From the UHGV virus genome UHGV-0301147: DNA of 42,879 nucleotides; one strand, 5' to 3'. The notes below the pieces were generated by a model. That model saw only the letters and a list, made by a program, of their open reading frames with translations. It searched no databases and was not told the origin of the DNA. Below, one piece after another: positions 4,827 through 32,166 of the stretch (positions within the stretch are counted from its first letter, which is position 1; each line of letters begins with the position of its first letter). Origin of the DNA: a virus. The translations under genes and the position numbers were made by a program.

Positions 4827-5339
4827 TTAATATACATGGAGAATACGAGCAACGCCCGCAAGAACGTCAACACCATTAATTACTCGTTTCATTTTTGCAG
4901 GATGAATCTCGTAAATAACTTTTCCATTTTGAACTCGTTTATAATAGCTCGGCGCAATCGTTACTGATTGCCCAACTGCTGATTTTGAATCAGTCCCCTG
5001 CGCGTCATCAGTAATCGCCGTAATAAGCCCCTCATATGTATCAATACGTTCAAAATTGACACCGTAATTGTCAGTATATGCACTTCGAATTTCGAACCTT
5101 GTTTTAGCACCTGGTATTAATCCAAAATACCCCATCACACCAGAATCGGAGCCAGAGACTTTAAAACTGGCTGACATTTTCTCCATTCCTCCGTCCAGAG
5201 TGATAGCTGTATCCATCGCGCCTGTTTTAAACTCGTCTTCGATTATTTTCATATCGACTGGAGTATATTCAGTACAATTTAAAACCCGTTCGCCCTGCAC
5301 GAATAGCGCAAACGCGCGGTAAGCGTTGCTGTCTGACAT
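4827..5339 (-). CDS. Contractile tail tube protein (gpFII-like)
   Basis: 170-aa ORF directly downstream of the sheath gene. Confidence 0.8.
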   Translation of the reverse strand: MSDSNAYRAFALFVQGERVLNCTEYTPVDMKIIEDEFKTGAMDTAITLDGGMEKMSASFKVSGSDSGVMGYFGLIPGAKTRFEIRSAYTDNYGVNFERIDTYEGLITAITDDAQGTDSKSAVGQSVTIAPSYYKRVQNGKVIYEIHPAKMKRVINGVDVLAGVARILHVY

Positions 5340-5356
5340 ATTTAATCTCCGAATTA

Positions 5357-6859
5357 TCAGGCTGCTTCTTTAAAAAGGGAGGCCAGTGCTTCAACTGTAT
5401 AGTCATTATTAATGCGGTACATTAACGTAATTGTTTGTGCCGGAGATTTCGGACCAAAATCAACATTAATATAAAGATTACCCGCAGCCAGGCTTTCTTT
5501 TGTATTCAGCTCACTGTCTAACCACGCACGCCCTCCGTTAATCGCACCCTGCTCCTCTAATTTGTGCAGATATGCGTTTATCGACTCGACAACGTCTGTT
5601 CCGAGGTGCAGGTCTATCGGACGAACAATAAAATCGGTCATCATTGCCCGGGCTATAGAATCCTCAATTACGTCAGCTGTTCGACGAACGCTCTCGAAAG
5701 ACCATTGCGGGCTGAGGCTGCACAAATAGTTACCCCAGTGTCTGAACCCGTCATAGCGAATAATCGTGCTGACCTGGCTGGCATTCAGCAGGTTCGCTGT
5801 GCAGTTTGTCTCACCAATAATAAAATCGTCGACTTGTTCAAGCCCTGTAACTCCGTAGATATTCTGGTTCGATTTACTCCACCAGAATCCTTTTTCATTA
5901 TCAATTCGGGCTCGTAAACCAGCAGCGATAGCTGAATACGGACGAGATAACCCACTGACATCACTCGTAGAATAAACGCGAGGTCGCAACAACTCAGCGC
6001 GTCCGCCGAGTTTTTGCCTGCGATTCACAACGTCTGCAGGGGTAGCAGCGCGCGGAGAGTCGATATAACACACTCCCCGGAGTTTATTTGCAACCACTTC
6101 AAGCTGAGCCGCTATTTCGTCTCGTGCGCTGTAATCCGGCGCTATAATAATTCGCGGGGTAACTTCGTTAATTTGCGCTGACGTCAAAAGCGAATTAATT
6201 CCGGCGATAACATTTTCGCTCATATCAGCGTCGTCGCTACTCTCTACAACGCGAACAACAACGATTAATGCATCAGTCTGATTTAAAATATCAGAAATAG
6301 CGGGGGGCAGAGTCCCGTATTTCCCGAGCAGGGCGGCTTTCTTCTGACTACCTGCAATTAATACAGGAGAATTAATCGGGAATGCGTCATCTGTTCCACC
6401 TGATAAATTTGTTGGTGGAAGACCAAATACTGTACCGGTTCCGGAATGCTCGCCACCAAAAGTTACATTAATCCACTCTCCGTCTGTTTTCCCCTCTCTA
6501 TATTCCTGATTCTGATCATACATTTTGCCGGGGGTCATTCCCGGCTCCGTAATCATCGTTAATTTTTTTGTTCCGTCGGGCAGCGTGCTATATCCTGGAG
6601 TGCAGGTTGCGCCCTCAACTGTCATATCTACAATTTCAACAACCCATTTGTTCCCGTCGCTGCCCGGTGATACAGTTGAAAACTCAACGAGATTATCAGC
6701 CAGCGATGAGCCCCACGTTAATGATGCTCTCGTAGCCTCCGCGACGTTCGTCGCAGTACCAACAATCCCAATCACGGAAATATCTACTGTGTTGATCTCT
6801 TTTGTGCCGTCGTCGTATTCGAGCGTGCGAATACCGTGCAAAAAATTAGTTACGCTCAT
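5357..6859 (-). CDS. Contractile tail sheath protein (gpFI-like)
   Basis: 500-aa ORF with sheath-family character, in sheath-tube-chaperone-tape measure order. Confidence 0.85.
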   Translation of the reverse strand: MSVTNFLHGIRTLEYDDGTKEINTVDISVIGIVGTATNVAEATRASLTWGSSLADNLVEFSTVSPGSDGNKWVVEIVDMTVEGATCTPGYSTLPDGTKKLTMITEPGMTPGKMYDQNQEYREGKTDGEWINVTFGGEHSGTGTVFGLPPTNLSGGTDDAFPINSPVLIAGSQKKAALLGKYGTLPPAISDILNQTDALIVVVRVVESSDDADMSENVIAGINSLLTSAQINEVTPRIIIAPDYSARDEIAAQLEVVANKLRGVCYIDSPRAATPADVVNRRQKLGGRAELLRPRVYSTSDVSGLSRPYSAIAAGLRARIDNEKGFWWSKSNQNIYGVTGLEQVDDFIIGETNCTANLLNASQVSTIIRYDGFRHWGNYLCSLSPQWSFESVRRTADVIEDSIARAMMTDFIVRPIDLHLGTDVVESINAYLHKLEEQGAINGGRAWLDSELNTKESLAAGNLYINVDFGPKSPAQTITLMYRINNDYTVEALASLFKEAA

Positions 6860-7245
6860 TTTATTCCTTCTCTATTTTCACCAATTCGCGTCGCTATTGC
6901 TTCTTTAAGCTCGGCCAAGTTTTCGATTTGCGCGTCAGATGCGGTTCCGGCATCTACTGCACACTGAATTGAGAATGCCTCAATTGACAGATCGCCAACA
7001 GTCCGTAATGTAGTCTGGAGTTTTTGCGTCTGCTCTTTTTTTACAAATTTAGAAATGCTCCCATAATCCCCGCTCAGCGCTCTTTCATATAAAACCCTAC
7101 CGTGTTCCTCGCAATCATTTTTCATTGCGGTGAATGGAATGTCGTTTCCAATCCCGTCAATATCGCAAATAATATTTATAGATAACCCATGCTCGTCATT
7201 AAAAACAGGGTTTGTTATTTTTCTAAATGAATCAACACTTATCAT
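6856..7245 (-). CDS. Tail fiber assembly protein (gpG-like)
   Basis: 129-aa ORF immediately downstream of the tail fiber gene; call is mainly positional. Confidence 0.55.
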   Translation of the reverse strand: MISVDSFRKITNPVFNDEHGLSINIICDIDGIGNDIPFTAMKNDCEEHGRVLYERALSGDYGSISKFVKKEQTQKLQTTLRTVGDLSIEAFSIQCAVDAGTASDAQIENLAELKEAIATRIGENREGIK

Positions 7246-8456
7246 TACGCAATCCTAATAGCTAAAAAACAGGCAGTCCCAATATCACCGACCCCGCCTG
7301 GTGAATACGCCATAGCTCGCCATGAGCCAACAAGGGGTGTGTCATAAAATGGTTTTGTGGCAATATCCGTGTTATATGAACCGGTATTATTTATACTAGC
7401 GTAATATAAATCACCTCCAGCCCATATGGAGCCCGGTAGTATTTGTGGTGCATGATTAATAGCGACAAGCGCATAAGTATTAACCGCGCCAACAACACCT
7501 ATTTCCGGTGATGGGTCCGGTGAAAGACTTATATCTATGTTGCCATTTTCATCCGGCGACTCCCCGTTAATCGTTTTAACCGGTTTAAGATTAGCCTCAT
7601 TCCAGTATTTATACGTCATTCCGCCACACAGTAATACCAGGCCATCATAGTGAACTCCGCGTAATCTATAAAAAACCTTCTGATTGTTTTCTCCACGGGT
7701 CGAAAAATCTAAATAATCGCCCGACACATCTGATAAACCAGCAAGTGAAAACAACGTCAAATCAGTGCCCGGTTTGTTTATATTTATTTGTTTTTTAGAG
7801 GATAAAACGTCTTCAAAAATCACATCATCTTTAAAAGTATTTGGATGAGTAAATGCATTACCCTTATCTCTATATGCAACGTCCCCATCTATACCAATAT
7901 TTTTCCGCGCAGCCTGCTGAGCAGTTTCACCATTTGCGGGAATTTCAGATAAGTTTTTACTTATCTGCAAATATTTTTTGTCAGCTTCCTCGGGAGTTAC
8001 GTAGTTGTCATATACTACAACATTAACCGTAGATGTGCTGGACACCGCGAGTGTGTATTTATACGTGATTGAAATCAGCGCACCGTTGCTGTCCGTAGGT
8101 TTTAAAATGTCCGGCGAGCGCGCCACAGAGTACAGCTCGCCTTTATCTGTTAATATCCCCACCTCACGGATAGTATAGCCCCCAGTGTCTGGCGGTACGT
8201 AAAGTGTAAAGATAACCTGGTTACCGCTATTTTCTGCGGATTTAATATCCCCACGATACGTCTCGTGAATTAATGCAGTTCGTGCCGGGTCCGGTGTTAC
8301 GTCGTCGTTTCCGTTTGCGTCGCCAATAACGAATTTATTCAGCACCACGGGTACACCCGATGCCAGCGCAGCGGCTTCAAGTTGCGCCCCCCGGTCTGTC
8401 AGTACCGCATAAACCTGGCTCGCGCTCGCTTTCAGATTTGATTTTAATTTAGCCAT
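7245..8456 (-). CDS. Tail fiber protein (gpH-like)
   Basis: 403-aa ORF after baseplate gene I with a conserved-looking N-terminus and a variable C-terminus. Confidence 0.75.
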   Translation of the reverse strand: MAKLKSNLKASASQVYAVLTDRGAQLEAAALASGVPVVLNKFVIGDANGNDDVTPDPARTALIHETYRGDIKSAENSGNQVIFTLYVPPDTGGYTIREVGILTDKGELYSVARSPDILKPTDSNGALISITYKYTLAVSSTSTVNVVVYDNYVTPEEADKKYLQISKNLSEIPANGETAQQAARKNIGIDGDVAYRDKGNAFTHPNTFKDDVIFEDVLSSKKQININKPGTDLTLFSLAGLSDVSGDYLDFSTRGENNQKVFYRLRGVHYDGLVLLCGGMTYKYWNEANLKPVKTINGESPDENGNIDISLSPDPSPEIGVVGAVNTYALVAINHAPQILPGSIWAGGDLYYASINNTGSYNTDIATKPFYDTPLVGSWRAMAYSPGGVGDIGTACFLAIRIA

Positions 8457-9075
8457 TAGGTCCTATCTCCACTAACAAACTCACAATTGGCGAGCCTGAT
8501 ATATATAGCCCGCCGTTAATTTTTACACCGCCGTCGCCGTCTGCTGGGATATTTACGCCTATTTTCGCGTAAGGCGCACCAGCTATAAAAAATTCACCAT
8601 CGACACCCGTTTCAAAATTTATTTCTTTTAATAAGGAACGGCAATTTTTTGCATCAAATATTTGTGCAATAAAGGTATTCAATAGTTCTAAATCTAACCC
8701 TATACTTTTTAGCAGATATATTTTAATTGCGAATGTATACGGGTCGTCCCTGGGCGTGGCTTCAAACCACTCTCTCATTTTGCTCTCAAATCCCACCGTT
8801 AATAATGCTCGTTCGACGGCACCACGCGTGCCGCGATGTTTATTTTGCCAGGCTGCGGCCTTAATAATTTCGCGTTTTTGCTGCTCGCTCCAGTCGGGGT
8901 TCCAGTAGGTGACCGCGTACTCCCACGCCAGCCACGGCAACAGATTTGCAGGGCACAAATCGGGATTTTTAATAATTCGAATATCGCCAGGCAGATCGCC
9001 GACGTGAGATAAAACAACCTCAAGCGCCCTCTCAGGGGTTATTGCGTTCGGAGGCAGTACGCTTTGACTTGTCAT
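8449..9075 (-). CDS. Baseplate/tail protein I (P2 gpI family)
   Basis: 208-aa ORF between J-like and H-like genes. Confidence 0.75.
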   Translation of the reverse strand: MTSQSVLPPNAITPERALEVVLSHVGDLPGDIRIIKNPDLCPANLLPWLAWEYAVTYWNPDWSEQQKREIIKAAAWQNKHRGTRGAVERALLTVGFESKMREWFEATPRDDPYTFAIKIYLLKSIGLDLELLNTFIAQIFDAKNCRSLLKEINFETGVDGEFFIAGAPYAKIGVNIPADGDGGVKINGGLYISGSPIVSLLVEIGPNG

Positions 9076-21675: not shown

Positions 21676-22058
21676 TATTTCATCCCCTTATCTGATTTCC
21701 ATAAACGAGCTTGTGACATGATCCGCAACAGTGATGTAACGCTGATTACTGATGCAACCAGTGCACCAATGGCGGGAGAGACTTTTACTGTTACGGGAGG
21801 GTTCAGGTGACTCAGCACCGCGTTCAGAATACCGGTAATGATTGCTGACGCTGTCTCAGCGCAATACACACCGCCAACAAACGAAATGAGTGCGAAAATA
21901 ACCTGCTTCCAGAATCGATGCTGCCCGGATGACAACACATAGAGAGCTGCGCCTGCCAGCGCACAGATCATCACTGCAGGTGTTGCCTCAGGAAATAACG
22001 CAGCAAACGTCACCCCCGCCGAGCCAGCAGCAACGCCAGCGGTTAGAGGTTCAGACAT
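21675..22058 (-). CDS. Holin-like membrane protein
   Basis: 127-aa ORF with multiple hydrophobic helices, first gene after the tR'-like terminator. Confidence 0.6.
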   Translation of the reverse strand: MSEPLTAGVAAGSAGVTFAALFPEATPAVMICALAGAALYVLSSGQHRFWKQVIFALISFVGGVYCAETASAIITGILNAVLSHLNPPVTVKVSPAIGALVASVISVTSLLRIMSQARLWKSDKGMK

Positions 22059-22082
22059 GATTTTTCCTGATTCAGAAACGAC

Positions 22083-22102
22083 AAAACCCCGCCGTGGCGA
22101 GG
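22083..22102 (-). terminator. tR'-like rho-independent terminator upstream of the holin gene
   Basis: Minus strand reads CCTCGCC-ACG-GCGGGG followed by TTTT, ~25 bp upstream of the holin start. Confidence 0.5.
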
Positions 22103-22452
22103 TTCTTAGAAATTTGGCAATATACCAAATTAGCGTTAAATATGGCCTATTTTGTTCGGTTTTGCAAGCATTATACGCAAACGTCGTCTAAATGGTTTTG
22201 ATAATGATGCAAAGTTGCAAGAAGTGCCACTTCATCAAGTGCTCTCACCGCCTCTTTCATTCCTGCCCAGTGCGGGGAGTATGTTTCGCACCAGGTGGAA
22301 CGAGAAACAGACAACATTCCAGCTAGCGCAGATCCGGCCATCTCCTTAAAATCCTCGCGTTTATTTGATGCTGCGACCGCCTGCACGGACAACCACACCA
22401 ACGAAAGCAGGCGCTTAACTACTTTTCTCTGAGTTGACGCGGGGATGTTTCC

Positions 22453-22480
22453 TTTATAGCGACTCCAGACAGCCTAACAA
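22453..22480 (-). promoter_or_regulatory. pR'-like late promoter candidate immediately after the Q-like gene
   Basis: Minus strand TTGTTA - 16 nt - TATAAA overlapping the stop of the 22474-22842 gene. Confidence 0.35.
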
Positions 22481-22842
22481 ATAGCTGTTTGGTGTTTGAA
22501 TGCCAGGTTACCACCGTAGCAATAACGCAACCACGCTTGCTGACTTGCATCCAGCGAGTTCACAGAACGCCGCCAGGATGAATCAGCAAATTCAAAATCA
22601 CTCATCGGCGGCGCGGGGCGACGTCTGCTGAAACTTTCCAGAGCGTAAACTGGCGTAACCAGAGCATCAACGGTCCGGTCCTCCAGCTGCACACGGTGAA
22701 TATGTTTGCGTGGGTATGCGTTTTTGTCTGCCGGTGGGTGCTCACACAATGCTTCCAGTTGCCCCTTAGAACCACCAGACAAATCCCGCAATGCAGCGCG
22801 CAGTTTTATGCGGGTATATTCCAATAAATACTCGTTACTCAT
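22474..22842 (-). CDS. Putative late-gene antiterminator (Q-like); assignment is positional
   Basis: 122-aa ORF between the YbcO-like gene and the promoter/terminator/holin region; lacks the DxD motif of RusA. Confidence 0.4.
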   Translation of the reverse strand: MSNEYLLEYTRIKLRAALRDLSGGSKGQLEALCEHPPADKNAYPRKHIHRVQLEDRTVDALVTPVYALESFSRRRPAPPMSDFEFADSSWRRSVNSLDASQQAWLRYCYGGNLAFKHQTAIC

Positions 22843-24896: not shown

Positions 24897-25175
24897 TTAT
24901 GAGGCCATGCCGTAGGCTTTTTTATGCATCCCATGGTCATATCCCATGTTATATGCTTCAAAAGCATCTTTATGACGTACATGCCCGGCCTGGCTTTCGG
25001 GTAAATCACCTAAAACAGAGTCATCAACCGCACGCGGAACGCCAATTAATGCGTGCCACATACCTTTATCATAGGCACATCCACAACATTTGTGCCGCCC
25101 AACGTTCCCCTGATTTGCGGAAAGAACATCAAACATACTGTCGTGACGATGTGACTTTTTACAGATGTGTTTCAT
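24897..25175 (-). CDS. Small Cys/His-rich hypothetical protein
   Basis: 92-aa ORF followed by its own terminator; start may be the internal Met; no family recognised. Confidence 0.45.
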   Translation of the reverse strand: MKHICKKSHRHDSMFDVLSANQGNVGRHKCCGCAYDKGMWHALIGVPRAVDDSVLGDLPESQAGHVRHKDAFEAYNMGYDHGMHKKAYGMAS

Positions 25176-25203
25176 TCATTGACCTATATCATTTTCGGTA
25201 ATG

Positions 25204-25265
25204 AATGCTTTACACGGGATCCCGGTTGAGGTAATCTCCCAAACCGAGATCTCAACGAAAGCATT
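25204..25265 (+). ncRNA. Candidate structured small RNA (nested stem-loops) ending at the plus-strand terminator
   Basis: Outer stem aatgcttt / aaagcatt (25204-25211 with 25258-25265) enclosing gggatccc and an interrupted helix ggttgag...atctc / gagatctcaac; a terminator follows 9 nt downstream. Confidence 0.3.
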
Positions 25266-25273
25266 AACCGATG

Positions 25274-25308
25274 TTTTTGTATGGCCCTGACAGCTCCAAC
25301 TGTCAGGG
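25274..25308 (+). terminator. Rho-independent terminator (plus strand) with no protein gene upstream on that strand
   Basis: 10-bp stem gccctgacag / ctgtcagggc, 6-nt loop, followed by TTTCCCTTT. Confidence 0.6.
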
Positions 25309-25395
25309 CTTTCCCTTTGATGCGATTCTAAAATCTTCGCAACCTCCAGATCCTATCCAGGACCAAGAAAAACTTCAATGAAAAGATCAAGTTAG

Positions 25396-25415
25396 ATCTG
25401 TATTTTTTTACAGAT
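25396..25415. promoter_or_regulatory. Second LexA-box-like site
   Basis: atCTGTatttttttACAGat fits CTGT-N8-ACAG with an AT-only centre; in the 567-bp intergenic region between the 92-aa gene and the ImmA-like gene. Confidence 0.45.
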
Positions 25416-25651
25416 GTAATAAATCACACATGTAATAGCCTTCCCTTCCTGTGCTCATCCAGGCGCTTGTGGCATCCATTTTTTTCAGAAACATATGGAC
25501 GCCTAAAAAACCACTAATCTCATGATTATCCTGTATGTTTTTACTGGAAACATTGAGACATCCACAATGCAGCGTAAAAAGCAAGCAATTCACAAGATTT
25601 TAAAGTGATTTATCTGGAAGACTTTACTACTAACAGTTAATATCGTACCAG

Positions 25652-25670
25652 AAGTGCAGAATTTGCACTT
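25652..25670. promoter_or_regulatory. 19-bp perfect palindrome (operator candidate) upstream of the ImmA-like operon
   Basis: AAGTGCA-GAATT-TGCACTT, ~75 bp upstream of the start at 25743. Confidence 0.4.
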
Positions 25671-25742
25671 TTACAGGAATGTGGTACGGAACATGTTGTC
25701 TATATTTCGACCAATAATCGTAATGCAGTAACTGGAGGAGCT

Positions 25743-26231
25743 ATGGCTACCAACCCAAGAGAGCACGCCCGGCGAGTGCTGGACACGTTCTGGTGCGGGC
25801 GTGGTTTCCCTGTTGATCCAGCGAAAATTGCTCACGACATGGGATTAGATGTTTTTATTACCGATCTTCCTGGGAAAGTTTCTGGCGCACTGATTAAACA
25901 AAAAGATCAAGATCCAGCGATCTTTCTAAACAGTGATGACAACAAAGTTCGTCAACGTTTTTCATGTGGGCATGAGTTGGGGCATTACATCGCCCGGCAA
26001 GCATCGCATAGCGATGAATATGAGTACGTTGATTTACGTGGCGAAACCGCAAGCGCCGGAACGCATCCTGATGAAATTTTTGCGAACAAGTTCGCAGCAG
26101 AACTTCTGATGCCGGTAGATGAGGTCAGAAAACTGCACGCTGACGGCCAACCAAGTTATATAATGGCGCATCATTTTGGCGTATCTGACGATGCGATGAC
26201 TTATCGTTTAAAGAACTTGAGGTTGGGGTAA
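25743..26231 (+). CDS. ImmA/IrrE family zinc metallopeptidase
   Basis: 162-aa ORF with HEXXH motif (CGHELGHYIARQ) and strong SD GGAGGAG. Confidence 0.85.
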   Translation: MATNPREHARRVLDTFWCGRGFPVDPAKIAHDMGLDVFITDLPGKVSGALIKQKDQDPAIFLNSDDNKVRQRFSCGHELGHYIARQASHSDEYEYVDLRGETASAGTHPDEIFANKFAAELLMPVDEVRKLHADGQPSYIMAHHFGVSDDAMTYRLKNLRLG

Positions 26232-26240
26232 CGCTTTAGA

Positions 26241-26846
26241 ATGCCATCGGATGACGATTTTAACAGCCGTTTCAAACAGGAAGTTGCACGCCGACTGAAG
26301 GATTCCCTCAACCTACACCGTCAGTTAGCAGAAGAGGTTGAGCCGGAGGAGGATGAAACTCCGGTTCAGTCTCCTGACGAAACTTCACCTCAGACAAAGG
26401 TTTCGCACGCTCCAAAAAAACCGTCTGCCCGTATTCACGGAATAGCCAGAAAAAGAGCTGCCGAAGCTCACAAAATGGCTGTAGCTGCGTCAATCAAAAG
26501 AATTCCAATTCCTACCCCCTCTCAACAAGTCACCCGTACTGAGAGTAAAATCTTGACCGAGTTCACATCTGTGAAACAGGTGAGTTCACTTGATACCGAG
26601 CATGAGCGCAAACAACTCAACAACAAAGATTTTGAAGCTGAAATCGCTCTAAAAAAACGCTACGGAAAATGGTTCCTGATAATCCTTGCTTGCCAACTTC
26701 TGATAATGAATGGTGTATTTATTGCCGACGGCGCAGGTAAGCTGGAATTTGAAGATTTAACGCTACAGTTGTACATGGGCGGTACTTTGACAGAGGTATT
26801 CGGCCTCGTGCTGGTCGTGACAAAATACCTTTTTAAACGCAAGTAA
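26241..26846 (+). CDS. Hypothetical membrane protein (acidic N-terminal region, two C-terminal transmembrane helices), co-operonic with the ImmA-like gene
   Basis: 201-aa ORF starting 9 bp after the ImmA-like stop; hydrophobic segments KWFLIILACQLLIMNGVFIA and GGTLTEVFGLVLVVTKYLF. Confidence 0.6.
   Translation: MPSDDDFNSRFKQEVARRLKDSLNLHRQLAEEVEPEEDETPVQSPDETSPQTKVSHAPKKPSARIHGIARKRAAEAHKMAVAASIKRIPIPTPSQQVTRTESKILTEFTSVKQVSSLDTEHERKQLNNKDFEAEIALKKRYGKWFLIILACQLLIMNGVFIADGAGKLEFEDLTLQLYMGGTLTEVFGLVLVVTKYLFKRK
26775..26846 (+). repeat. Direct repeat copy A (last 24 codons of the membrane-protein gene)
   Basis: 72 bp matching 30377-30448 with 6 mismatches. Confidence 0.8.
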
Positions 26847-26955
26847 CTCTCTCTATGGAACAGACTTTAGTCGATTTAATGGAGAAGACCAGCAACCCCA
26901 AATGACCAAGTAACAAGTGCTGGCCTTATAGACGATTACTGAGTGTGTTCGAGTG

Positions 26956-27360
26956 TTATCGTTGTACAATTCGTCCGTTGGGATCCAGCCACATCCCATC
27001 AGAAAGATACACCATTTCCCTGGGTTCATCCGTTACCTGCAGGTCATGGTAAATTGAAGTAAGCTCATTTTTAGGTGAAGGAGTGATATCTTCGCTTCCA
27101 AAGATCATATCTTGGTATTGTGCCCAATTTTGGCGAATTTCGAAATACATATCAACATCATAATCCTGCCCTCTTAGTTCATCATCTGAAGATATATTCA
27201 ATGTCTTTTTGAGACCGATGATGTTAAAGATCCACTTCTTACCACCTTTAATGAAGTATGCCCCAGTATATGCCTCTTCATCTGGTACAGCCTCATAACC
27301 TAAATTTAATGCTAATTGTATCTGTTCTGCTAATGTAAAAGACTCTTTCCATCCACTCAT
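26956..27360 (-). CDS. Hypothetical acidic protein
   Basis: 134-aa ORF in the low-GC cassette; no family recognised. Confidence 0.5.
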   Translation of the reverse strand: MSGWKESFTLAEQIQLALNLGYEAVPDEEAYTGAYFIKGGKKWIFNIIGLKKTLNISSDDELRGQDYDVDMYFEIRQNWAQYQDMIFGSEDITPSPKNELTSIYHDLQVTDEPREMVYLSDGMWLDPNGRIVQR

Positions 27361-27680
27361 AGCTTATTACCTACCTGTGAACCTGTTTGCTGCATGAAAA
27401 ACAATATAATAAAGCGTTATTGAAGACTATGAACCAAGTAAATTTAATCAAAGACGTTTATAACGCATTTGCCTAAACAACTTCCACCGTATGATCCGCT
27501 TCTCGCTCTCAGCAGACCTTTATCTGCAGGTGCTTGTCTGCTGTGTTCCAGAAGCAGATATTATTATATAACTCTTTAACCCATGTATGACAAAATATTC
27601 TTGGAGCTTATTAAAACTTCATACGTCTAAATCACCTCTTCATTAGTGAATCAATAATTGTATAGTTAAAATGTAACACT

Positions 27681-28346
27681 TTATTTTTTATGATTAACTT
27701 GCTTTGCTAAAGAGCTATAAATCATATCAACCAAAACATATTTTTCGCATTCCCAAGGTTCACTAATAGATGGGTTTACTAAGTCTGGCTTCCCCCCCAT
27801 TAGTGTATGAACATGCGAATAAATACCTATTCTTTCTGCGAGTTGCATTATTTTTATTTGATGTTCTGGTGGGAGCATTTTGTTTTTAAACCATGTTGTA
27901 AATATATGCTTGGTAAGTTCCTTAGTACAAACAAACCATTCACCTTGACGTCTTTCGTTGCTAAATTTTTCATGAAGATAATTTTCTTTTTCTGAACCAC
28001 CAGGTTCCAAAGCGTGTAATATTAATTGACCAAATGCACCTGTTTGCAGGTTAGACAACCTTTTTAGCACATTATTGGAACGCCCTATTTTCACATAAAG
28101 TCCCGAGTAAGGGTTATTTTTATCTGAAGAACCGGCCCAAGTATCAGGCACTTGTAAAATATAATAAATACTACTTACTTTCCCACTCGATACATTATTT
28201 GCCCAAATCTGCCATTCTTCCATCCAGCTTTTTGCATCTTCTCTCGTGTCAAAGGCATGACTTGTATAGTAAAATTCACCAGTATCCAAGAACATATCGA
28301 AAACATATTTGCCATTCTCTATAATTCTTAAGTTGTCGGCTTTCAT
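27681..28346 (-). CDS. T5orf172 (MUG113, GIY-YIG-like) domain protein; putative defence-type nuclease
   Basis: 221-aa ORF containing LYVKIGRSNNVLKRLSNLQTG ... ENYLHEKFSNERRQGEWF, matching the T5orf172 signature (YKIG-T ... R ... L ... E ... LH ... F ... R ... GEWF); AT-rich. Confidence 0.75.
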   Translation of the reverse strand: MKADNLRIIENGKYVFDMFLDTGEFYYTSHAFDTREDAKSWMEEWQIWANNVSSGKVSSIYYILQVPDTWAGSSDKNNPYSGLYVKIGRSNNVLKRLSNLQTGAFGQLILHALEPGGSEKENYLHEKFSNERRQGEWFVCTKELTKHIFTTWFKNKMLPPEHQIKIMQLAERIGIYSHVHTLMGGKPDLVNPSISEPWECEKYVLVDMIYSSLAKQVNHKK

Positions 28347-28550
28347 GGAAGTTTCTCACAAAGTTACAGGAATATATAAAAACTTTACTACGCTTAGTAT
28401 ATGTTACCACCTGATTATGTATTATTTGATTTACACAACTTATTGCTAGTAATAACGGTTTTGATGTAATCTTCTCATCCCAAACTAACCTTCAAAATAG
28501 ATTTAATCTAAATTATATCAAAATATGCTCTCAGTTAAGATGGCTTATTT

Positions 28551-28748
28551 TTAATCAGTTAGAGGATCAACCTGATTTTCTCTAATAAGATTTCGTAACG
28601 CAGTACGAGCAGCCGCGACTTCTGTCATTCCATTTAGAACCACGCTGGAATGCCCTCCTCTAACCCCAAAGACTGTGACCATATCCTCTTCACGGAAGTA
28701 TTCTGCTTCATACTGAAGGCCATCTTTCTCTACGCGAATATATGACAT
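28551..28748 (-). CDS. Small hypothetical protein
   Basis: 65-aa ORF with SD GAGG, upstream of the T5orf172 gene. Confidence 0.45.
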   Translation of the reverse strand: MSYIRVEKDGLQYEAEYFREEDMVTVFGVRGGHSSVVLNGMTEVAAARTALRNLIRENQVDPLTD

Positions 28749-29374
28749 AACAACCTCATTTTATTATCTTTTGTTTGAATGATATATCCACAAAATAATT
28801 TAAGCAATCTCGCCCAAGACGGCACGCCAAGCTTGCCTTGTAAGTATAATGTAAATATTCCGATAAAACTAATCATTCGCTTTTAGCGCATGTCCAAAAA
28901 ATGGTTCAGGTATCCTATCGTGCCAATATTCGCTCCTCACTCATAGCGGCTTTCAGGCAAGTTAACTAGTCCGCTCGGTGCCATATAGAGCCATGGTTAT
29001 TAACAGCAGGGAATAATTCCACACTGAAATTAAATGTCTGCCTTTTACAGTAGAAATAGTTTCTCCAGGACACTATCCATTGCCGGGCACAATCACTCGG
29101 GGTATAACGATATAAAATATGTTCATGATAGTGCAGGTTCGTATATTAAGTTCAGCAGCGAAAACATGCCTTACAGGTTTCCGGTTTTGGGAGCGTCGTT
29201 ACAGGATCCTGCGCATACCGTTCCCATCTGTTGAATTAAAGGTTTCACAGCCTTTGCCGATATCGCCTTTTACCTTGCCTGTGATGCGTTCAGTGCTCAG
29301 CGTTGTTTACTGTAGCTCTCGGAACTGATTACAGACCGCGTCTTAAAAACCAATCCTTACTCTAAAGGGAATTC

Positions 29375-30298
29375 ATGAGATTAAAATACTCAGTACTCTT
29401 ACTCGCCATTGCCCTTACAGGCTGTGATAACAAAAAAGATGAGATCGGTTGTTCTTCGGAAATGACCCAATCAGCTCTCATGGATTTATTAAAAAAATCT
29501 GCTTATGAAGGACTCTCTGAACAGGTCGATAAATACCCTGATGTCACTAATCAGACCAAACGAAGCACACTGGACAAGATCAAACTAGCCGTCTCTGAAA
29601 TCTCCACAACATCAAGTGACACGGGCAGCACAATGAAAACTTGTGAAGGGACCGTGACGATGACTCTACCTGCGAACGAGTACGTCCAGCTTTCAGATGC
29701 TTACAGAAAGAATTTTAATCGTAATCTCGACAAGCAAATGGAAAGCCTGTTTTTGGAGAACAACGCAAACGCCTTTTCCAAACGTATCACCTACACCGTG
29801 CAGGCGACCGACGATCAGAAAAACGTTTTTGTAAAAACCTCTTCTGATAATCCGATATCAGTGGGCGCCGCTTTACTGACATCACTTTCTATTATCAACC
29901 CGATCGTTGAGCAGCAGAAAATCCAGCAGGCTAAGGATGCCCAACAGAGCCAAATTGAAGCGGAACAACAGGTGCAACTCAGGGCGCAGGAACAGGCTAA
30001 GTATGAGGCGGAGAAGCAAATAGAGAGACAGGCACAACTTCAGCCACAAAAAGCTGACAGCCTTGATCAGTCCCGAATGGCATTTGCGAATGCCGACTCT
30101 GATTTGAGTACCGTCTGGAGCAAGTTAACCCCGGCGAAGAAAAAAGATTTGCTGCCTTCTCAGCGTCAGTGGATCAAAACTAAGGATGCTATGTGCGGTA
30201 AAGTTTCAATGCAGGGAACAGATGCTGAAGTCAAGAAAATGCTCGACTGCCAGACGCAAATGACCCTTTCAAGAATCGCTTTCCTCAGAAACCAATAA
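29375..30298 (+). CDS. Lipoprotein with Gln-rich coiled-coil region and C-terminal DUF1311 (LprI-like) domain
   Basis: 307-aa ORF with lipobox LTGC and C-terminal DLLPSQRQWIKTKDAMCG ... MLDCQTQMTLSRIAFL typical of DUF1311. Confidence 0.7.
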   Translation: MRLKYSVLLLAIALTGCDNKKDEIGCSSEMTQSALMDLLKKSAYEGLSEQVDKYPDVTNQTKRSTLDKIKLAVSEISTTSSDTGSTMKTCEGTVTMTLPANEYVQLSDAYRKNFNRNLDKQMESLFLENNANAFSKRITYTVQATDDQKNVFVKTSSDNPISVGAALLTSLSIINPIVEQQKIQQAKDAQQSQIEAEQQVQLRAQEQAKYEAEKQIERQAQLQPQKADSLDQSRMAFANADSDLSTVWSKLTPAKKKDLLPSQRQWIKTKDAMCGKVSMQGTDAEVKKMLDCQTQMTLSRIAFLRNQ

Positions 30299-30312
30299 CT
30301 GAAGTTTCCTTC

Positions 30313-30346
30313 AAGCTGGCGCCAGGTGTTAACCTGGTGCCAGCTT
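30313..30346 (+). terminator. Strong stem-loop after the DUF1311 lipoprotein gene (terminator candidate)
   Basis: aagctggcgccagg / cctggtgccagctt 14-bp stem (one G-U) with loop tgttaa, 15 bp after the stop; no clean U-tract. Confidence 0.4.
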
Positions 30347-30376
30347 AGTCATCAAGTGCATATTTAACTGTTTTAT

Positions 30377-30448
30377 ATGGGCGGTACTTTGACAGAGGTA
30401 TTCGGTCTCGTGCTGGTCGTGGTCAAATACCTTTTTAAACGCAAATAG
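30377..30448 (+). repeat. Direct repeat copy B (orphan 24-codon remnant of the membrane-protein gene 3' end)
   Basis: 72 bp matching 26775-26846; retains ATG and a stop but no upstream gene body. Confidence 0.8.
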
Positions 30449-30472
30449 AGTATTTCCACCCCAAACAACCTG

Positions 30473-31309
30473 TCAAAATGCTGAATCAGCAACAGATACA
30501 GCCGACTTTTTCCCCATTACCATCAATTTATCCAGTGTCATACTTCGCAGATTGTCGCTGTGGATCACCAGATACCCTGCCCGCTCAGCGATCTCTTTGA
30601 AAGCGTCAAAGGTCATCAGATGTTCGCCTTTGGCAACATGGCGCATCCTTGTCACTTTTCCATTTTTGATAGTGGTGATAAAAGAAAAATCCGGAATGGT
30701 TGGCTGATTTTCATCGAGTAGCAGGCAGTGGATGTATTCAATCGCCTCTAACATTTGCGTCTGTGACAGTTGTTCTATGTGAGAGACGGCGAAGCGTTGA
30801 TGAATCATGGTGTAGGCATCGGGATACATCATGCCTTTCTTACCGACCAGCATATTAACGGCATCACGTAAGGGAGTACGGTCATCGGTAGTTGTACTCC
30901 GCCTCTCTGGGCGCTGGCTAAAATAACAATCTTCAAGCTTTTCGAAAACTTCCCAAGCCTGTTCTGTTTCCAGCATTTTGGCATGGCGAGCTGCGCCGCG
31001 TTCTGTCCAGAGAATGAGGGATCGGGTATGTTTAGCAACTGACTGACTATCTGTCAGTCTGTTTTTGAAGTCGCGTAATTCATTACCTTCCAGCTTAAAA
31101 AAATGCTTTCCTACGACAAATCTGGCGATGTTGCGCTTGAAGTTTTGCTGGATACCATTTACTTCCGTGCCATACAAACTGGCAAGCAATTCAGTAGTGA
31201 TGACGGGAAGTTGGTTATGATGTAGCGGAGAAAGGGATTCCGCAGATATTTGGATTGTCATCGCAGTGGCCTCACTTAGTGTTTTTTTCATCACCACCAG
31301 CGACGCCAA
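30473..31309 (-). CDS. Phage antirepressor-like regulatory protein (Ant/Rha-type N-terminal domain)
   Basis: 278-aa ORF with antirepressor-like N-terminal region; true start probably an internal Met. Confidence 0.55.
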   Translation of the reverse strand: MASLVVMKKTLSEATAMTIQISAESLSPLHHNQLPVITTELLASLYGTEVNGIQQNFKRNIARFVVGKHFFKLEGNELRDFKNRLTDSQSVAKHTRSLILWTERGAARHAKMLETEQAWEVFEKLEDCYFSQRPERRSTTTDDRTPLRDAVNMLVGKKGMMYPDAYTMIHQRFAVSHIEQLSQTQMLEAIEYIHCLLLDENQPTIPDFSFITTIKNGKVTRMRHVAKGEHLMTFDAFKEIAERAGYLVIHSDNLRSMTLDKLMVMGKKSAVSVADSAF

Positions 31310-31533
31310 TCATCTGGTGGTGAACTGTGCAGGGTTGGCGTAACCGGCTAAGTGAACCCGGCGCTTCCGCAGAAGCCCCCACACAGCCCACCATAATGCG
31401 AATGTGGCCGTGCCTAACACATAAAAAAACCGCTAACGCGGCTATGCGTCACTTAGATATCCGGGACGCCAATCCCGGCAACCGATTTTGCGGCTGCGCG
31501 GAAACTATAGCCCCGGGCTTTTTCTAAGTCAAT

Positions 31534-31755
31534 TCAATCAACTTCAAACCTCCGGTGTTCACATTCCATACACTCAACGGGAACATCATCGCGATGCAAG
31601 TCCACATATCCGACCCGCTTATACAACTCAATAATGTCCGGTAACGTGACCAGATGTTTTTCCGGTTCCAACACCTCAGCCCTGGTTACTTTGTAATCTG
31701 AAATATAGAGCACTATCCGCCCGTTCCGTGGTAACTCCAGTTTATCGCCAAACAT
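31534..31755 (-). CDS. Hypothetical protein (nin-region-like)
   Basis: 73-aa ORF colinear with the minus-strand early-right operon. Confidence 0.4.
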   Translation of the reverse strand: MFGDKLELPRNGRIVLYISDYKVTRAEVLEPEKHLVTLPDIIELYKRVGYVDLHRDDVPVECMECEHRRFEVD

Positions 31756-31941
31756 GTCCTTCCCTCCGGGAAACCAATGATATTGACGATATTACACCCA
31801 CAACGATTCGTTTTACGTCACTCCGCAATCACCATACATACGTACCAATCCGTACATTCCCACCACAAAAATGGCATTCGGCGGGCACTGGTAATGGATT
31901 TTTAACGTGTGCTATTGCCTTGCGACGTATTTTCAACTCAC

Positions 31942-32166
31942 TCATACAGCCTCCCTGCTCTCAAATGGGCGAATATTGGTTGGTTCTCCACACGGAATAG
32001 CCCAACCCAGCCAGGTAAATATTTTCAGGTCACACATCGCGTCATACCGTTCGCCAGGATTCACATCCACCATGCTGCAGGCAATTTCATATTGTTCACC
32101 ATTATCAGTCAGTGCGATCTGGTCATTAATAAACCGGGGCACAAATGCCAGAAAAAGTTCTTTCAT
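31942..32166 (-). CDS. Hypothetical protein
   Basis: 74-aa ORF whose stop abuts the start of the next gene; an overlapping plus-strand ORF was judged less likely. Confidence 0.35.
   Translation of the reverse strand: MKELFLAFVPRFINDQIALTDNGEQYEIACSMVDVNPGERYDAMCDLKIFTWLGWAIPCGEPTNIRPFESREAV

What the first reader, a model, noticed from the sequence alone, without database searches (positions are those of the whole stretch)
26775..30448. 72-bp duplication of a gene end brackets a 3.5-kb cassette
The last 24 codons of the membrane-protein gene (26775-26846) recur at 30377-30448 (6 mismatches) as an orphan ATG-to-stop remnant just before the antirepressor gene. The intervening 3.5 kb carries the T5orf172 cluster and the DUF1311 lipoprotein. 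This looks like a recombination or insertion scar.
Basis: seen in the sequence. Interest (0 to 1): 0.6.

Follow-up and report, generated by a model that had tools for sequence, protein, structure and literature searches.

The report
Gene-end remnant in a prophage hotspot
The duplicated 72 bases are real: they are a dead leftover of an older copy of a membrane-protein gene, left when related E. coli prophages recombined out of register at a spot where accessory and anti-phage genes are swapped, and the leftover still recombines occasionally; it is an ordinary kind of scar.

Summary
Observation confirmed. 26775-26846 and 30377-30448 match at 66 of 72 bases; with relatives included, homology runs 26759-26846 / 30361-30448.

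The window is a complete E. coli prophage. Copy A ends an intact 201-aa membrane-protein gene that is always paired with an IrrE-like peptidase gene. Copy B is a non-coding remnant fixed between the LprI terminator hairpin and the ORF6N antirepressor gene.

- In many relatives the remnant carries a 1-bp frameshift.
- 6 of 7 substitutions against copy A are synonymous, so it came from a different functional allele, not from an in-place duplication.
- The 3.6-kb interval is composite. A low-GC 2.1-kb part (T5orf172 cluster) is replaced in relatives by other cassettes, several of them known or candidate defence systems. A 1.4-kb LprI block is constant.

The one "empty" configuration (1 of 452 genomes, GPEC172) is a recent A×B recombination deletion. 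In E. whittamii a crossover inside the remnant sits in front of a second cassette.

Verdict: an inter-phage recombination scar in a prophage accessory-gene hotspot, still active as a short recombination substrate. It is a new example of a known kind and of low-to-moderate interest.

One oddity is unexplained. Two remnant classes with different left neighbours start at the same nucleotide.

The parts
25743..26231 (+). IrrE/ImmA-like Zn-metallopeptidase gene (162 aa), the constant partner of the membrane-protein gene
   Evidence: Pfam Peptidase_M78 1.4e-17. PADLOC capP 1.6e-25, N-terminal half of the profile only. A Peptidase_M78 gene sits immediately upstream of every membrane-protein homologue examined.
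26241..26846 (+). Membrane-protein gene ('Memb', 201 aa): variable N-terminal part, two C-terminal TM helices, last 29 aa nearly invariant across Enterobacterales
   Evidence: ORF. 48 homologues and their alignment. phrog_5346, unknown function. No Pfam or PADLOC hit.
26759..26846 (+). Copy A: the 3' block of the intact gene (strict repeat 26775-26846). No nucleotide polymorphism from 26766 to the stop among five full-length E. coli alleles.
26847..26877 (+). Short conserved post-stop flank. It is shared with relatives and marks the left edge of the variable segment.
   Evidence: BLAST breakpoints at 26868-26877.
26878..28973 (.). Variable low-GC cassette: 134-aa gene (26956-27360, minus), T5orf172/GIY-YIG-like gene (27681-28346, minus) and 65-aa gene (28551-28748, minus). 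The sub-unit 27495-28844 also occurs elsewhere on its own.
   Evidence: GC 32-36% against 43-50% in the flanks. Pfam MUG113/T5orf172. Replaced by unrelated DNA in L002, L005, L010, L014 and L019. 86% nt match in a different defence-island-like context, L048.
28974..30360 (+). Constant LprI block: upstream region, lipoprotein LprI/DUF1311 gene (29375-30298) and a 14-bp-stem hairpin (30316-30349)
   Evidence: About 98% identical in relatives with different cassettes. Pfam LprI. Hairpin MFE of the 82-nt stretch -34 kcal/mol, z = -5.6. In E. coli complete genomes this block is followed by the remnant and antirepressor in 438 of 450 genomes.
30361..30448 (+). Copy B: non-coding remnant of the 3' end of a second Memb allele (class B1). 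Strict repeat 30377-30448.
   Evidence: Class B2 relatives carry a 1-bp deletion. B2 against A shows 6 of 7 substitutions synonymous or stop-preserving, p about 0.001. B1 has Val at the family-invariant Thr194.
30473..31309 (-). ORF6N-domain antirepressor gene, convergent with the remnant; right-hand conserved flank of the hotspot
   Evidence: Pfam ORF6N 9e-22. phrog_4792 anti-repressor 2.5e-163.
31313..31510 (-). C4 antisense RNA, isrK and a1/b1 target elements upstream of the antirepressor gene (context, not part of the repeat)
   Evidence: Rfam RF01695 74.5 bits, RF01394 80.4 bits, RF03163 52.9 bits, all above gathering score.

Best explanation
The second copy is a pseudogene fragment: the last ~88 nt of a different allele of the membrane-protein gene. 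It was left behind when two related prophages recombined out of register. One partner contributed IrrE-Memb, a downstream accessory cassette, LprI and its terminator hairpin. The other contributed everything from position -88 of its own Memb gene onward, that is the gene end followed by the antirepressor gene. Shown: the join is one old event, because the hairpin/remnant junction is identical in every sequence sampled, and it has been inherited by a whole family of E. coli and E. whittamii prophages. Shown: the DNA between Memb and LprI is a hotspot where accessory or defence cassettes are exchanged through the conserved flanks. Shown: the remnant is not maintained as a gene but remains a short direct repeat that recombines. 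A×B recombination deleted 3.4 kb in GPEC172 and produced a chimeric Memb gene. A crossover inside the remnant joins it to the native downstream flank of a full-length gene and a second defence cassette in E. whittamii. Inferred: the nature of the original join (illegitimate or microhomology-mediated), the identity of the two parents, and the enzymes involved (RecA or a phage recombinase).
For: 1. The repeat is real and widespread.
2. The remnant decays. Class B2 has a 1-bp deletion that frameshifts it in E. coli, E. whittamii, IMG/VR and metagenome contigs. Class B1, the window's class, has Val at the family-invariant Thr194 and a stop and other non-synonymous changes just upstream of the ATG.
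3. It came from a different functional allele. B2 against A shows 6 of 7 substitutions synonymous or stop-preserving, against 25% synonymous sites (p about 0.001).
4. Single origin. The LprI-hairpin/remnant junction is the same in all about 30 sampled loci, and LprI's 3' end is followed by the remnant and antirepressor in 438 of 450 E. coli genomes.
5. Hotspot. The left block 25481-26868 and right block 28974-32000 are conserved at 96-98%, while the middle is replaced by at least five unrelated cassettes. These include PD-T4-3 (1.7e-137), PDC-M25A/B (8.5e-157 and 4e-96), a GmrSD_N/NsnA-like gene and a SMEK gene.
6. Deletion by repeat recombination. GPEC172 has A-type sequence up to the ATG and ST131 B1-type sequence at every diagnostic site after base 29. 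Its flanks are 99.88% and 99.93% identical to the occupied ST131-type prophage.
7. Crossover inside the remnant. The E. whittamii remnant has the B2 body (deletion, GTT GTG ACT) but the A-type tail (AAG TAA) followed by about 270 bp of the native post-Memb flank and a PDC-M25 cassette.
8. No recombinase, transposase or integrase is encoded between the copies in the window.
Against: - No parent carrying a full-length 'type-2' allele (tail AAA TAG next to the antirepressor) was found. The only such arrangement is the secondary GPEC172 deletion. An exact-pattern scan for it gave 0 hits in metagenome and viral contigs, and homologues in other genera sit in other contexts.
- No LprI block without the remnant was found either.
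- A second remnant class (C) with an unrelated left neighbour starts at the same nucleotide (26759-equivalent). The upstream similarity between B and C is not significant. Purely random illegitimate joins do not predict this.
- Most of the ~450 genomes belong to one clone (ST131), so the number of independent lineages is small.
Confidence: 0.75

Rival explanations
1. e14/phage-21-in-icd type event. A small integrative element carrying its own copy of the Memb 3' end inserted site-specifically into the gene. The element-borne copy (A) now completes the gene and the displaced original end (B) sits at the far side. GPEC172 would then be a precise excision.
For: The geometry is that of icd / icdC around e14, where excision also makes a chimeric gene (PMC13626634). 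The differences are mostly synonymous. A 29-nt identical stretch could serve as a core. The deletion in GPEC172 is precise. One alternative cassette (L014) contains a 200-aa 'site-specific integrase' annotation.
Against: No integrase or recombinase lies between the copies in the window. The bracketed DNA does not behave as a unit: the left 2.1 kb is swapped independently while the LprI block stays. The T5orf172 sub-unit occurs elsewhere without any Memb fragment. The LprI block is never found apart from the remnant and antirepressor. Copy A and its downstream flank stay the same whatever cassette follows. Empty sites are essentially absent (1 of 452 genomes; 0 in two collection scans).
Confidence: 0.07
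2. The conserved 88-nt block is a preferred break or docking site, for example the target of a cassette-encoded GIY-YIG or HNH nuclease, or the edge of a homology block where recombination intermediates are cut. Junctions would then recur at the same nucleotide, and cassettes would be gained and lost there in a semi-directed way.
For: Two remnant classes with unrelated left neighbours start at the same codon, with no significant shared upstream sequence. Allelic polymorphism among full-length genes is densest at 26721-26765 and zero from 26766 to the stop. Nuclease genes are frequent in the cassettes: T5orf172 in the window, LEM-3 GIY-YIG plus HNH in L004, and a GIY-YIG protein in L010.
Against: The GIY-YIG protein of L010 is PD-T4-3, listed as a defence protein rather than a homing enzyme. 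Copy A is identical whatever the cassette, so there is no sign of target-site immunity changes. No genome holds more than two copies. Only two junction events are known, so coincidence (about 0.5-1%) or common descent cannot be excluded. At about 70% nt identity in other genera, conservation of the block is protein-level, not DNA-level.
Confidence: 0.08
3. The remnant is functional in its own right: a 23-aa hydrophobic peptide (type-I-toxin-like) or an RNA element in the 3' region of the antirepressor transcript. It would be retained by selection.
For: The window's copy B is an intact ATG-to-stop ORF encoding MGGTLTEVFGLVLVVVKYLFKRK. It lies antisense within the 3' region downstream of the antirepressor ORF.
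Against: The B2 class carries a 1-bp deletion that truncates the ORF to 14 codons in many lineages. In the L005/L015 type the remnant is reduced to about 12 nt with the antirepressor intact. The sequence read shows no Shine-Dalgarno-like motif upstream. No Rfam hit falls on it. It is lost without trace in GPEC172.
Confidence: 0.03
4. In-place duplication of copy A: a target-site-like duplication, replication slippage or a tandem duplication later filled in by insertions.
For: Direct orientation and high identity.
Against: The substitution pattern shows divergence under coding constraint before truncation. Copy B has its own stop codon (TAG) and its own downstream flank. An 88-nt duplication is far longer than transposon target duplications, and no transposase is present.
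Confidence: 0.02

Closest known systems
icd / icdC (pseudo-icd) around the e14 element and phage 21 in E. coli K-12
   Same: An intact gene lies at one end of the inserted DNA and a C-terminal fragment pseudogene of the same gene at the other. The two copies differ mainly at synonymous sites. Loss of the intervening DNA recombines them into a chimeric but full-length gene (PMC13626634, read; compare GPEC172).
   Different: e14 carries its own integrase and excises as a unit on SOS induction. Here no recombinase lies between the copies, the bracketed DNA is composite, and its parts vary independently.
Mosaic joints in lambdoid phages made by illegitimate or homeologous recombination (Martinsohn et al. 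2008, PMC2327257; De Paepe et al. 2014, PMC3945230)
   Same: The setting is related temperate phages and defective prophages exchanging segments. Short, partly diverged homologies act as crossover sites, and mosaic boundaries are flanked by residual homology. The 88-nt block here sits to the right of three alternative left-hand modules and to the left of several right-hand contexts.
   Different: De Paepe et al. state that phage genomes usually lack internal repeats. Here an internal direct repeat persists in hundreds of genomes and has demonstrably caused a deletion. The enzymes involved were not tested here.
Prophage and satellite hotspots of anti-phage systems (Rousset et al. 2022, PMC9122126)
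   Same: Conserved flanking genes enclose highly variable content that includes recognised defence systems: PD-T4-3, PDC-M25, a GmrSD_N/NsnA-like gene and a SMEK gene in relatives.
   Different: That work describes P2-like phages and P4-like satellites (abstract). This hotspot lies in the early, nin-like region of a prophage with lambda-like early and head genes and a contractile tail. The window's own cassette matches no known system.
Integron cassette arrays (attC-bounded cassettes)
   Same: A repeated boundary sequence separates successive accessory cassettes. In E. whittamii two cassettes are each preceded by a copy of the block.
   Different: There is no IntI integrase and no attC-type imperfect palindrome. 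The repeat is a gene fragment, at most two copies occur per genome, and the exchange pattern fits general homologous recombination.

Membership tests
Recombination scar (gene-fragment pseudogene at a mosaic joint between related temperate phages) | The fragment is homologous to a gene that exists full-length in the same genome or in relatives | tested here: met
   66/72 identity to the end of the 201-aa gene. The homology spans 88 nt in better-preserved copies.
Recombination scar (gene-fragment pseudogene at a mosaic joint between related temperate phages) | The fragment is not maintained as coding sequence | tested here: met
   A 1-bp deletion in class B2, stop and non-synonymous changes in B1 and C, and reduction to about 12 nt in L005/L015.
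Recombination scar (gene-fragment pseudogene at a mosaic joint between related temperate phages) | The fragment stems from another allele or genome rather than from copying the neighbouring gene | tested here: met
   6 of 7 B2-versus-A substitutions are synonymous or stop-preserving (p about 0.001). The fragment has its own stop codon and downstream flank.
Recombination scar (gene-fragment pseudogene at a mosaic joint between related temperate phages) | Parental arrangements can be identified | tested here: not met
   No full-length type-2 allele next to the antirepressor was found except the secondary GPEC172 deletion. No LprI block without the remnant was found.
Site-specific integrative element duplicating a gene 3' end (e14/phage 21 in icd; tRNA-type att) | Intact gene at one end and a C-terminal fragment at the other, with loss of the insert giving a chimeric gene | tested here: met
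   Window layout; GPEC172 chimera.
Site-specific integrative element duplicating a gene 3' end (e14/phage 21 in icd; tRNA-type att) | An integrase or recombinase is encoded inside the bracketed DNA | tested here: not met
   Pfam, PADLOC and PHROGs scans of all ORFs between the copies give T5orf172/MUG113, LprI and nothing recombinase-like.
Site-specific integrative element duplicating a gene 3' end (e14/phage 21 in icd; tRNA-type att) | The bracketed DNA is gained, lost and found elsewhere as one unit | tested here: not met
   The left 2.1 kb varies independently of the LprI block. The T5orf172 sub-unit occurs elsewhere without the repeat. The empty state is seen once and is derived.
Prophage hotspot of accessory / anti-phage genes | Conserved flanks with unrelated alternative contents at the same position | tested here: met
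   At least six alternative contents lie between the Memb flank and the LprI or antirepressor flank.
Prophage hotspot of accessory / anti-phage genes | The contents include recognised defence systems | tested here: met
   PD-T4-3 1.7e-137; PDC-M25A/B 8.5e-157 and 4e-96; NsnA-like/GmrSD_N 4.6e-41; SMEK. The window's own cassette has only weak PADLOC hits.
Prophage hotspot of accessory / anti-phage genes | The cassettes confer phage resistance | not testable with these tools
   Requires plaque assays.
Integron-type cassette array | IntI integrase and attC recombination sites at the cassette boundaries | tested here: not met
   No integrase is present. The repeat is a direct gene fragment, not an imperfect palindrome. 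There are at most two copies per genome.
Free-standing homing endonuclease insertion | The presence/absence polymorphism consists of the nuclease ORF itself next to a conserved target gene | tested here: not met
   The variable segment holds three genes and is replaced by unrelated multi-gene cassettes rather than simply being absent.
Free-standing homing endonuclease insertion | The nuclease cleaves the nuclease-less allele near the insertion point | not testable with these tools
   Needs an in vitro cleavage assay. Only the recurrent -88 limit hints at a preferred break.

The most novel reading that the evidence does not exclude
The nucleotide-invariant 88-nt end of the IrrE-partner membrane-protein gene may act as a portable docking or linker sequence for this prophage family. 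Copies of it would mark the left edge of successive accessory or defence cassettes, so that cassettes can be stacked (E. whittamii) or dropped (GPEC172) by short-homology recombination. Breaks may occur preferentially at its upstream edge, because two unrelated joins fall at the same nucleotide. They might be made by a cassette-encoded nuclease or by processing at the homology boundary. This would be an integrase-free, gene-embedded analogue of cassette recombination sites.
Probability: 0.1. Interest if true: 0.55.

Novelty: new member of a known kind. Interest (0 to 1): 0.3.

Why it matters
- It gives a clean, datable example of how temperate-phage mosaics form and then keep evolving. One out-of-register join left an 88-nt gene fragment. 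That fragment has since caused a 3.4-kb deletion with a chimeric gene in one lineage, and in another lineage sits at a crossover that brings in a second defence cassette.
- It pins down a hotspot in a prophage family carried by the pandemic ST131 clone, between the IrrE-Memb pair and the C4/isrK-controlled antirepressor. Known and candidate anti-phage systems are exchanged there, which is useful for mining new systems.
- It does not reveal a new mechanism. Its value is descriptive unless the recurrent -88 limit turns out to reflect a directed process.

Tried and rejected
- **Chance or artefact:** rejected.
- **Ancestral empty site:** a chimeric Memb-end plus antirepressor query found one genome out of 452. 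Its flanks and diagnostic bases show it is a derived deletion. An exact pattern for that configuration found nothing in metagenome or viral contigs.
- **Parent of the LprI side:** in E. coli genomes LprI's 3' end is always followed by the remnant, so no parent was found.
- **Sequenced phages:** the INPHARED collection has no Memb homologue (tblastn) and only marginal DNA matches.
- **GTDB species representatives:** only 3 loci were returned. The 22 unconfirmed pattern hits are about what chance predicts for 9-residue patterns (my own estimate), so I did not interpret them.
- **Context of distant Memb homologues** (Klebsiella, Salmonella, E. coli, Cronobacter, Enterobacter, Leclercia): none is convergent with an antirepressor. 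The pair sits next to int, in nin regions, before lysis genes, or in islands.
- **DNA-level conservation of the block across genera:** rejected, at about 70% nt identity in Buttiauxella and Leclercia.
- **Shared upstream homology between remnant classes B and C:** not significant, as 480 of 2000 shuffles reach the observed score.
- **Functional small ORF or RNA:** rejected.
- **Terminator role for the remnant:** no terminator-like site on it. The strong hairpin lies upstream of it and belongs to the LprI block.
- **First attempts to BLAST L002 in Python** failed because several loci are stored in one file. This was solved. One regex scan timed out.

Full report
**Observation.** Window 26775-26846 and 30377-30448 are 66/72 identical in direct orientation. 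The repeat finder extends the pair to 81 nt at 90% (26765-26845 / 30367-30447). The next-best direct repeat in 25000-32000 is 23 nt at 74%. Copy A is the last 24 codons of a 201-aa ORF (26241-26846, plus strand). Copy B sits 24 nt from the stop of a convergent ORF6N-domain gene (30473-31309, minus strand). The mismatches are GGC>GGT, ACA>GTC, AAG>AAA and TAA>TAG.

**Setting.** The window is 100% identical to E. coli 22KM0354. It is a whole prophage between a tRNA-Leu gene and yecA, with lambda-like early and head genes and a contractile tail. Around the finding the order is as follows.
- Q (a pseudogene in that record), DUF1364 and DUF1367 genes.
- An IrrE/ImmA-like peptidase gene (25743-26231; Peptidase_M78, capP-like) and the membrane-protein gene ("Memb").
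- Three minus-strand genes in low-GC DNA (32-36% GC): a 134-aa gene, a T5orf172/MUG113 gene and a 65-aa gene.
- A lipoprotein of the LprI/DUF1311 family (29375-30298), then a strong hairpin (30316-30349; z = -5.6), then copy B.
- The ORF6N antirepressor gene (phrog_4792), preceded on its own strand by C4 antisense RNA, isrK and a1/b1 elements.
- The DnaB-type helicase gene.

**What the full-length gene is.** Memb has 48 detectable homologues across Enterobacterales. The N-terminal part is highly variable. The last 29 residues (LTLQLYMGGTLTEVFGLVLVVTKYLFKRK, the second of two TM helices) are nearly invariant, including M179 and T194. The ATG that opens copy B is therefore an internal Met codon. 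Conservation in other genera is at protein level: Buttiauxella and Leclercia are about 70% identical in DNA. A 162-aa Peptidase_M78 gene immediately precedes every homologue examined, but the pair occupies different places.
- Between the tRNA/att end and the integrase gene in K. oxytoca, E. coli and Salmonella.
- In a nin-like region in Cronobacter.
- Before the lysis genes in Enterobacter kobei.
- In an island in Leclercia.

So IrrE-Memb is itself a mobile two-gene module whose right edge is essentially its stop codon.

**Comparison with relatives.** Against ST131-type prophages, other E. coli, E. whittamii, IMG/VR and metagenome contigs, two blocks are conserved at 96-98%: 25481-26868 (IrrE, Memb and about 22-31 nt beyond the stop) and 28974-32000 (LprI block, remnant, antirepressor). 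The DNA between them is replaced wholesale.
- ST131 type (about 420 genomes): a 232-aa gene.
- Br_54_kylling: 4.2 kb with an integrase fragment and an ETEC_3214 gene.
- L010: 4.3 kb with PD-T4-3 (1.7e-137); its right join lies inside LprI.
- L005/ECO20: 5.4 kb with a SMEK gene and a methyltransferase; its right join leaves only about 12 nt of the remnant.
- L019: a GmrSD_N/NsnA-like gene.
- CFSAN061769: LEM-3 GIY-YIG and HNH genes, with no IrrE-Memb.

Four different cassettes start at the same point, about 270 nt after the Memb stop.

The window's T5orf172 plus 65-aa unit (27495-28844) recurs at 86% identity, without Memb or LprI, between TerB, BrxC/D-like ATPase, DEAD-helicase and SF1-helicase genes in another viral contig. 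The interval between the repeats is therefore composite: a swappable cassette plus a fixed LprI block. It is not one inserted element.

**The remnant.** Every sampled LprI block ends with the same hairpin, about 15 nt of spacer, and the Memb fragment. In E. coli complete genomes this arrangement holds in 438 of 450 genomes. That indicates a single origin. There are two alleles.
- B1 (window, ST131 type): no indel, but Val (GTC) at invariant Thr194, and a stop and other replacements just upstream of the ATG.
- B2 (many other lineages): a 1-bp deletion (GAG-TATTC) that frameshifts it.

In B2 the homology to the gene clearly starts at ACG, equivalent to window 26759. B2 differs from copy A by seven substitutions, six of them synonymous or stop-to-stop, where 25% would be expected (p about 0.001). 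The fragment therefore diverged from copy A while it was still the end of a working gene. It comes from another allele, with its own stop codon (TAG) and its own downstream flank leading into the antirepressor gene. This excludes an in-place duplication and fits recombination between two related phages out of register. No Rfam family, terminator-like site or conserved ORF is associated with it.

**The repeat is recombinationally active.**
1. A synthetic "empty-site" query (the last 500 nt of Memb joined to the 500 nt after copy B) matched in one piece in 1 of 452 genomes, GPEC172. There Memb is followed after 24 nt by the antirepressor gene. The sequence is A-type up to the ATG and identical to the ST131 B1 remnant at every diagnostic position. 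The flanks are 99.88% and 99.93% identical to the occupied ST131-type prophage. This is a 3,423-bp deletion with the crossover in the first 29 identical bases. It yields a chimeric protein (WP_134241516.1) with Val at T194. The same configuration was not found in metagenome or viral contigs.
2. In E. whittamii the remnant has the B2 body but the A-type tail (AAG TAA). It continues into about 270 nt of the native post-Memb flank (96% to ST131 type) and a PDC-M25A/B cassette, before a truncated antirepressor gene. Whichever state is ancestral, a crossover occurred within the last ~20 nt of the remnant. The result is two cassettes, each preceded by a copy of the block.
3. B1 bodies occur with B2-type downstream flanks (L049).

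**Unexplained.** A third class, C (L019, L027, L051; partly deleted in L015), lies next to the promoter side of an unrelated 182-aa gene. In those prophages that gene and a neighbour replace IrrE and the 5' part of Memb. Its homology also begins at the 26759-equivalent ACG. Sequence upstream of the limit shows no significant similarity between B and C. Among five full-length E. coli alleles, polymorphism is densest at 26721-26765 and absent from 26766 to the stop. Three boundaries therefore coincide within a few nucleotides. Possible causes are coincidence (about 0.5-1%), descent of B and C from one older remnant, use of the block as a homology "linker" between alternative modules, or a preferred break. 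I could not discriminate between them.

**Mechanism.** The best-supported reading (confidence about 0.75) has three parts.
- One old out-of-register join between related prophages produced the LprI-hairpin/Memb(-88) junction.
- Later cassette turnover took place by recombination in the conserved flanks.
- Occasional homologous recombination occurs between the two copies or between the remnant and full-length genes.

This matches what is known for lambdoid phages. Phage Rad52-like recombinases and RecA recombine short and diverged homologies and create mosaics with residual flanking homology (PMC3945230; PMC2327257). Which enzymes act here is inference.

The closest named analogue in geometry is icd / icdC around e14, where excision also produces a chimeric gene (PMC13626634). 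Membership in that class fails on two defining features. No recombinase lies between the copies, and the bracketed DNA is not a unit. Integron-type and homing-endonuclease readings also fail defining tests; see the membership table.

**Novelty and interest.** This is a new example of a known kind: a recombination scar inside a prophage accessory/defence hotspot of the general type described for P2 and P4 (PMC9122126). A specialist would not be surprised. The documented after-life of the scar and the recurrent limit at 26759 are the only unusual points. Interest 0.3.

Noticed in passing
window 25743-26846; L028, L054-L070: The IrrE-like peptidase (162 aa) and the two-TM membrane protein always occur as an adjacent pair but at different sites. 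In K. oxytoca, E. coli and Salmonella the pair lies between the tRNA/att end and the integrase gene, 23-40 bp from the int stop. In Cronobacter it is in a nin region near ORF6N and Hok, in E. kobei before the holin gene, and in Leclercia in an island. The membrane partner has no Pfam or PADLOC model (phrog_5346, unknown function). The pair looks like an uncharacterised mobile two-gene accessory, possibly defence, module.
   Followed up: partly
window 26797-26828 (inside copy A); also 29367-29410 and 25949-25983: A spacer in the type I-E CRISPR array between ygcE and queE of E. coli 23CRST031 matches 26797-26828 at 32/32, with a canonical AAG PAM on the minus strand. Remnant B1 differs from this spacer at 4 positions, including seed positions 7-9. 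Two further BLAST hits to annotated E. coli CRISPR arrays fall at the LprI start and inside the IrrE gene; these were not inspected.
   Followed up: partly
window 31313-31510 (minus strand): Rfam hits above gathering score for C4 antisense RNA, isrK and the a1/b1 target elements lie directly upstream of the ORF6N antirepressor gene. This is a P1 immI-like / Salmonella isrK-type control module for the antirepressor.
   Followed up: no
window 27495-28844; L048 4456-5852: The T5orf172 gene plus the 65-aa gene form a 1.35-kb unit. It recurs at 86% nt identity in an unrelated viral contig between TerB, BrxC/D-like ATPase, DEAD-helicase and SF1-helicase genes. The 134-aa gene (26956-27360) is not part of that unit.
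   Followed up: partly
window 30316-30349: A perfect 14-bp GC-rich stem with a GTTAAC-containing loop sits right after the LprI stop (z = -5.6) and has no U-tract. It lies 15 nt from the old recombination join. It may terminate or stabilise both convergent transcripts, or it may have been the fragile site on the LprI side of the join.
   Followed up: partly
L027 (E. coli JNE151685) 5980-8800: This is a minimal version of the locus: two unrelated minus-strand genes (681 and 549 bp), remnant C, an intact 85-aa minus-strand gene and then the backbone. IrrE-Memb, LprI and the antirepressor are all absent. The ~270-nt 'post-Memb flank' conserved in other prophages appears to be the 3' part of that 85-aa gene.
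   Followed up: partly
window ~22040-22710 (Q gene; L001 1-243, L030 22038-22709): The antitermination protein Q gene is annotated as a pseudogene with an internal stop in the identical RefSeq record, so this prophage copy may be defective. Strain Z0117EC0036 carries an IS1A insertion inside the cassette region.
   Followed up: no
L003 (E. coli GPEC172) 4895-5500: The chimeric membrane protein produced by the deletion (WP_134241516.1) carries Val at Thr194, which is invariant in all 23 aligned family members. It may be a natural loss- or change-of-function allele.
   Followed up: no
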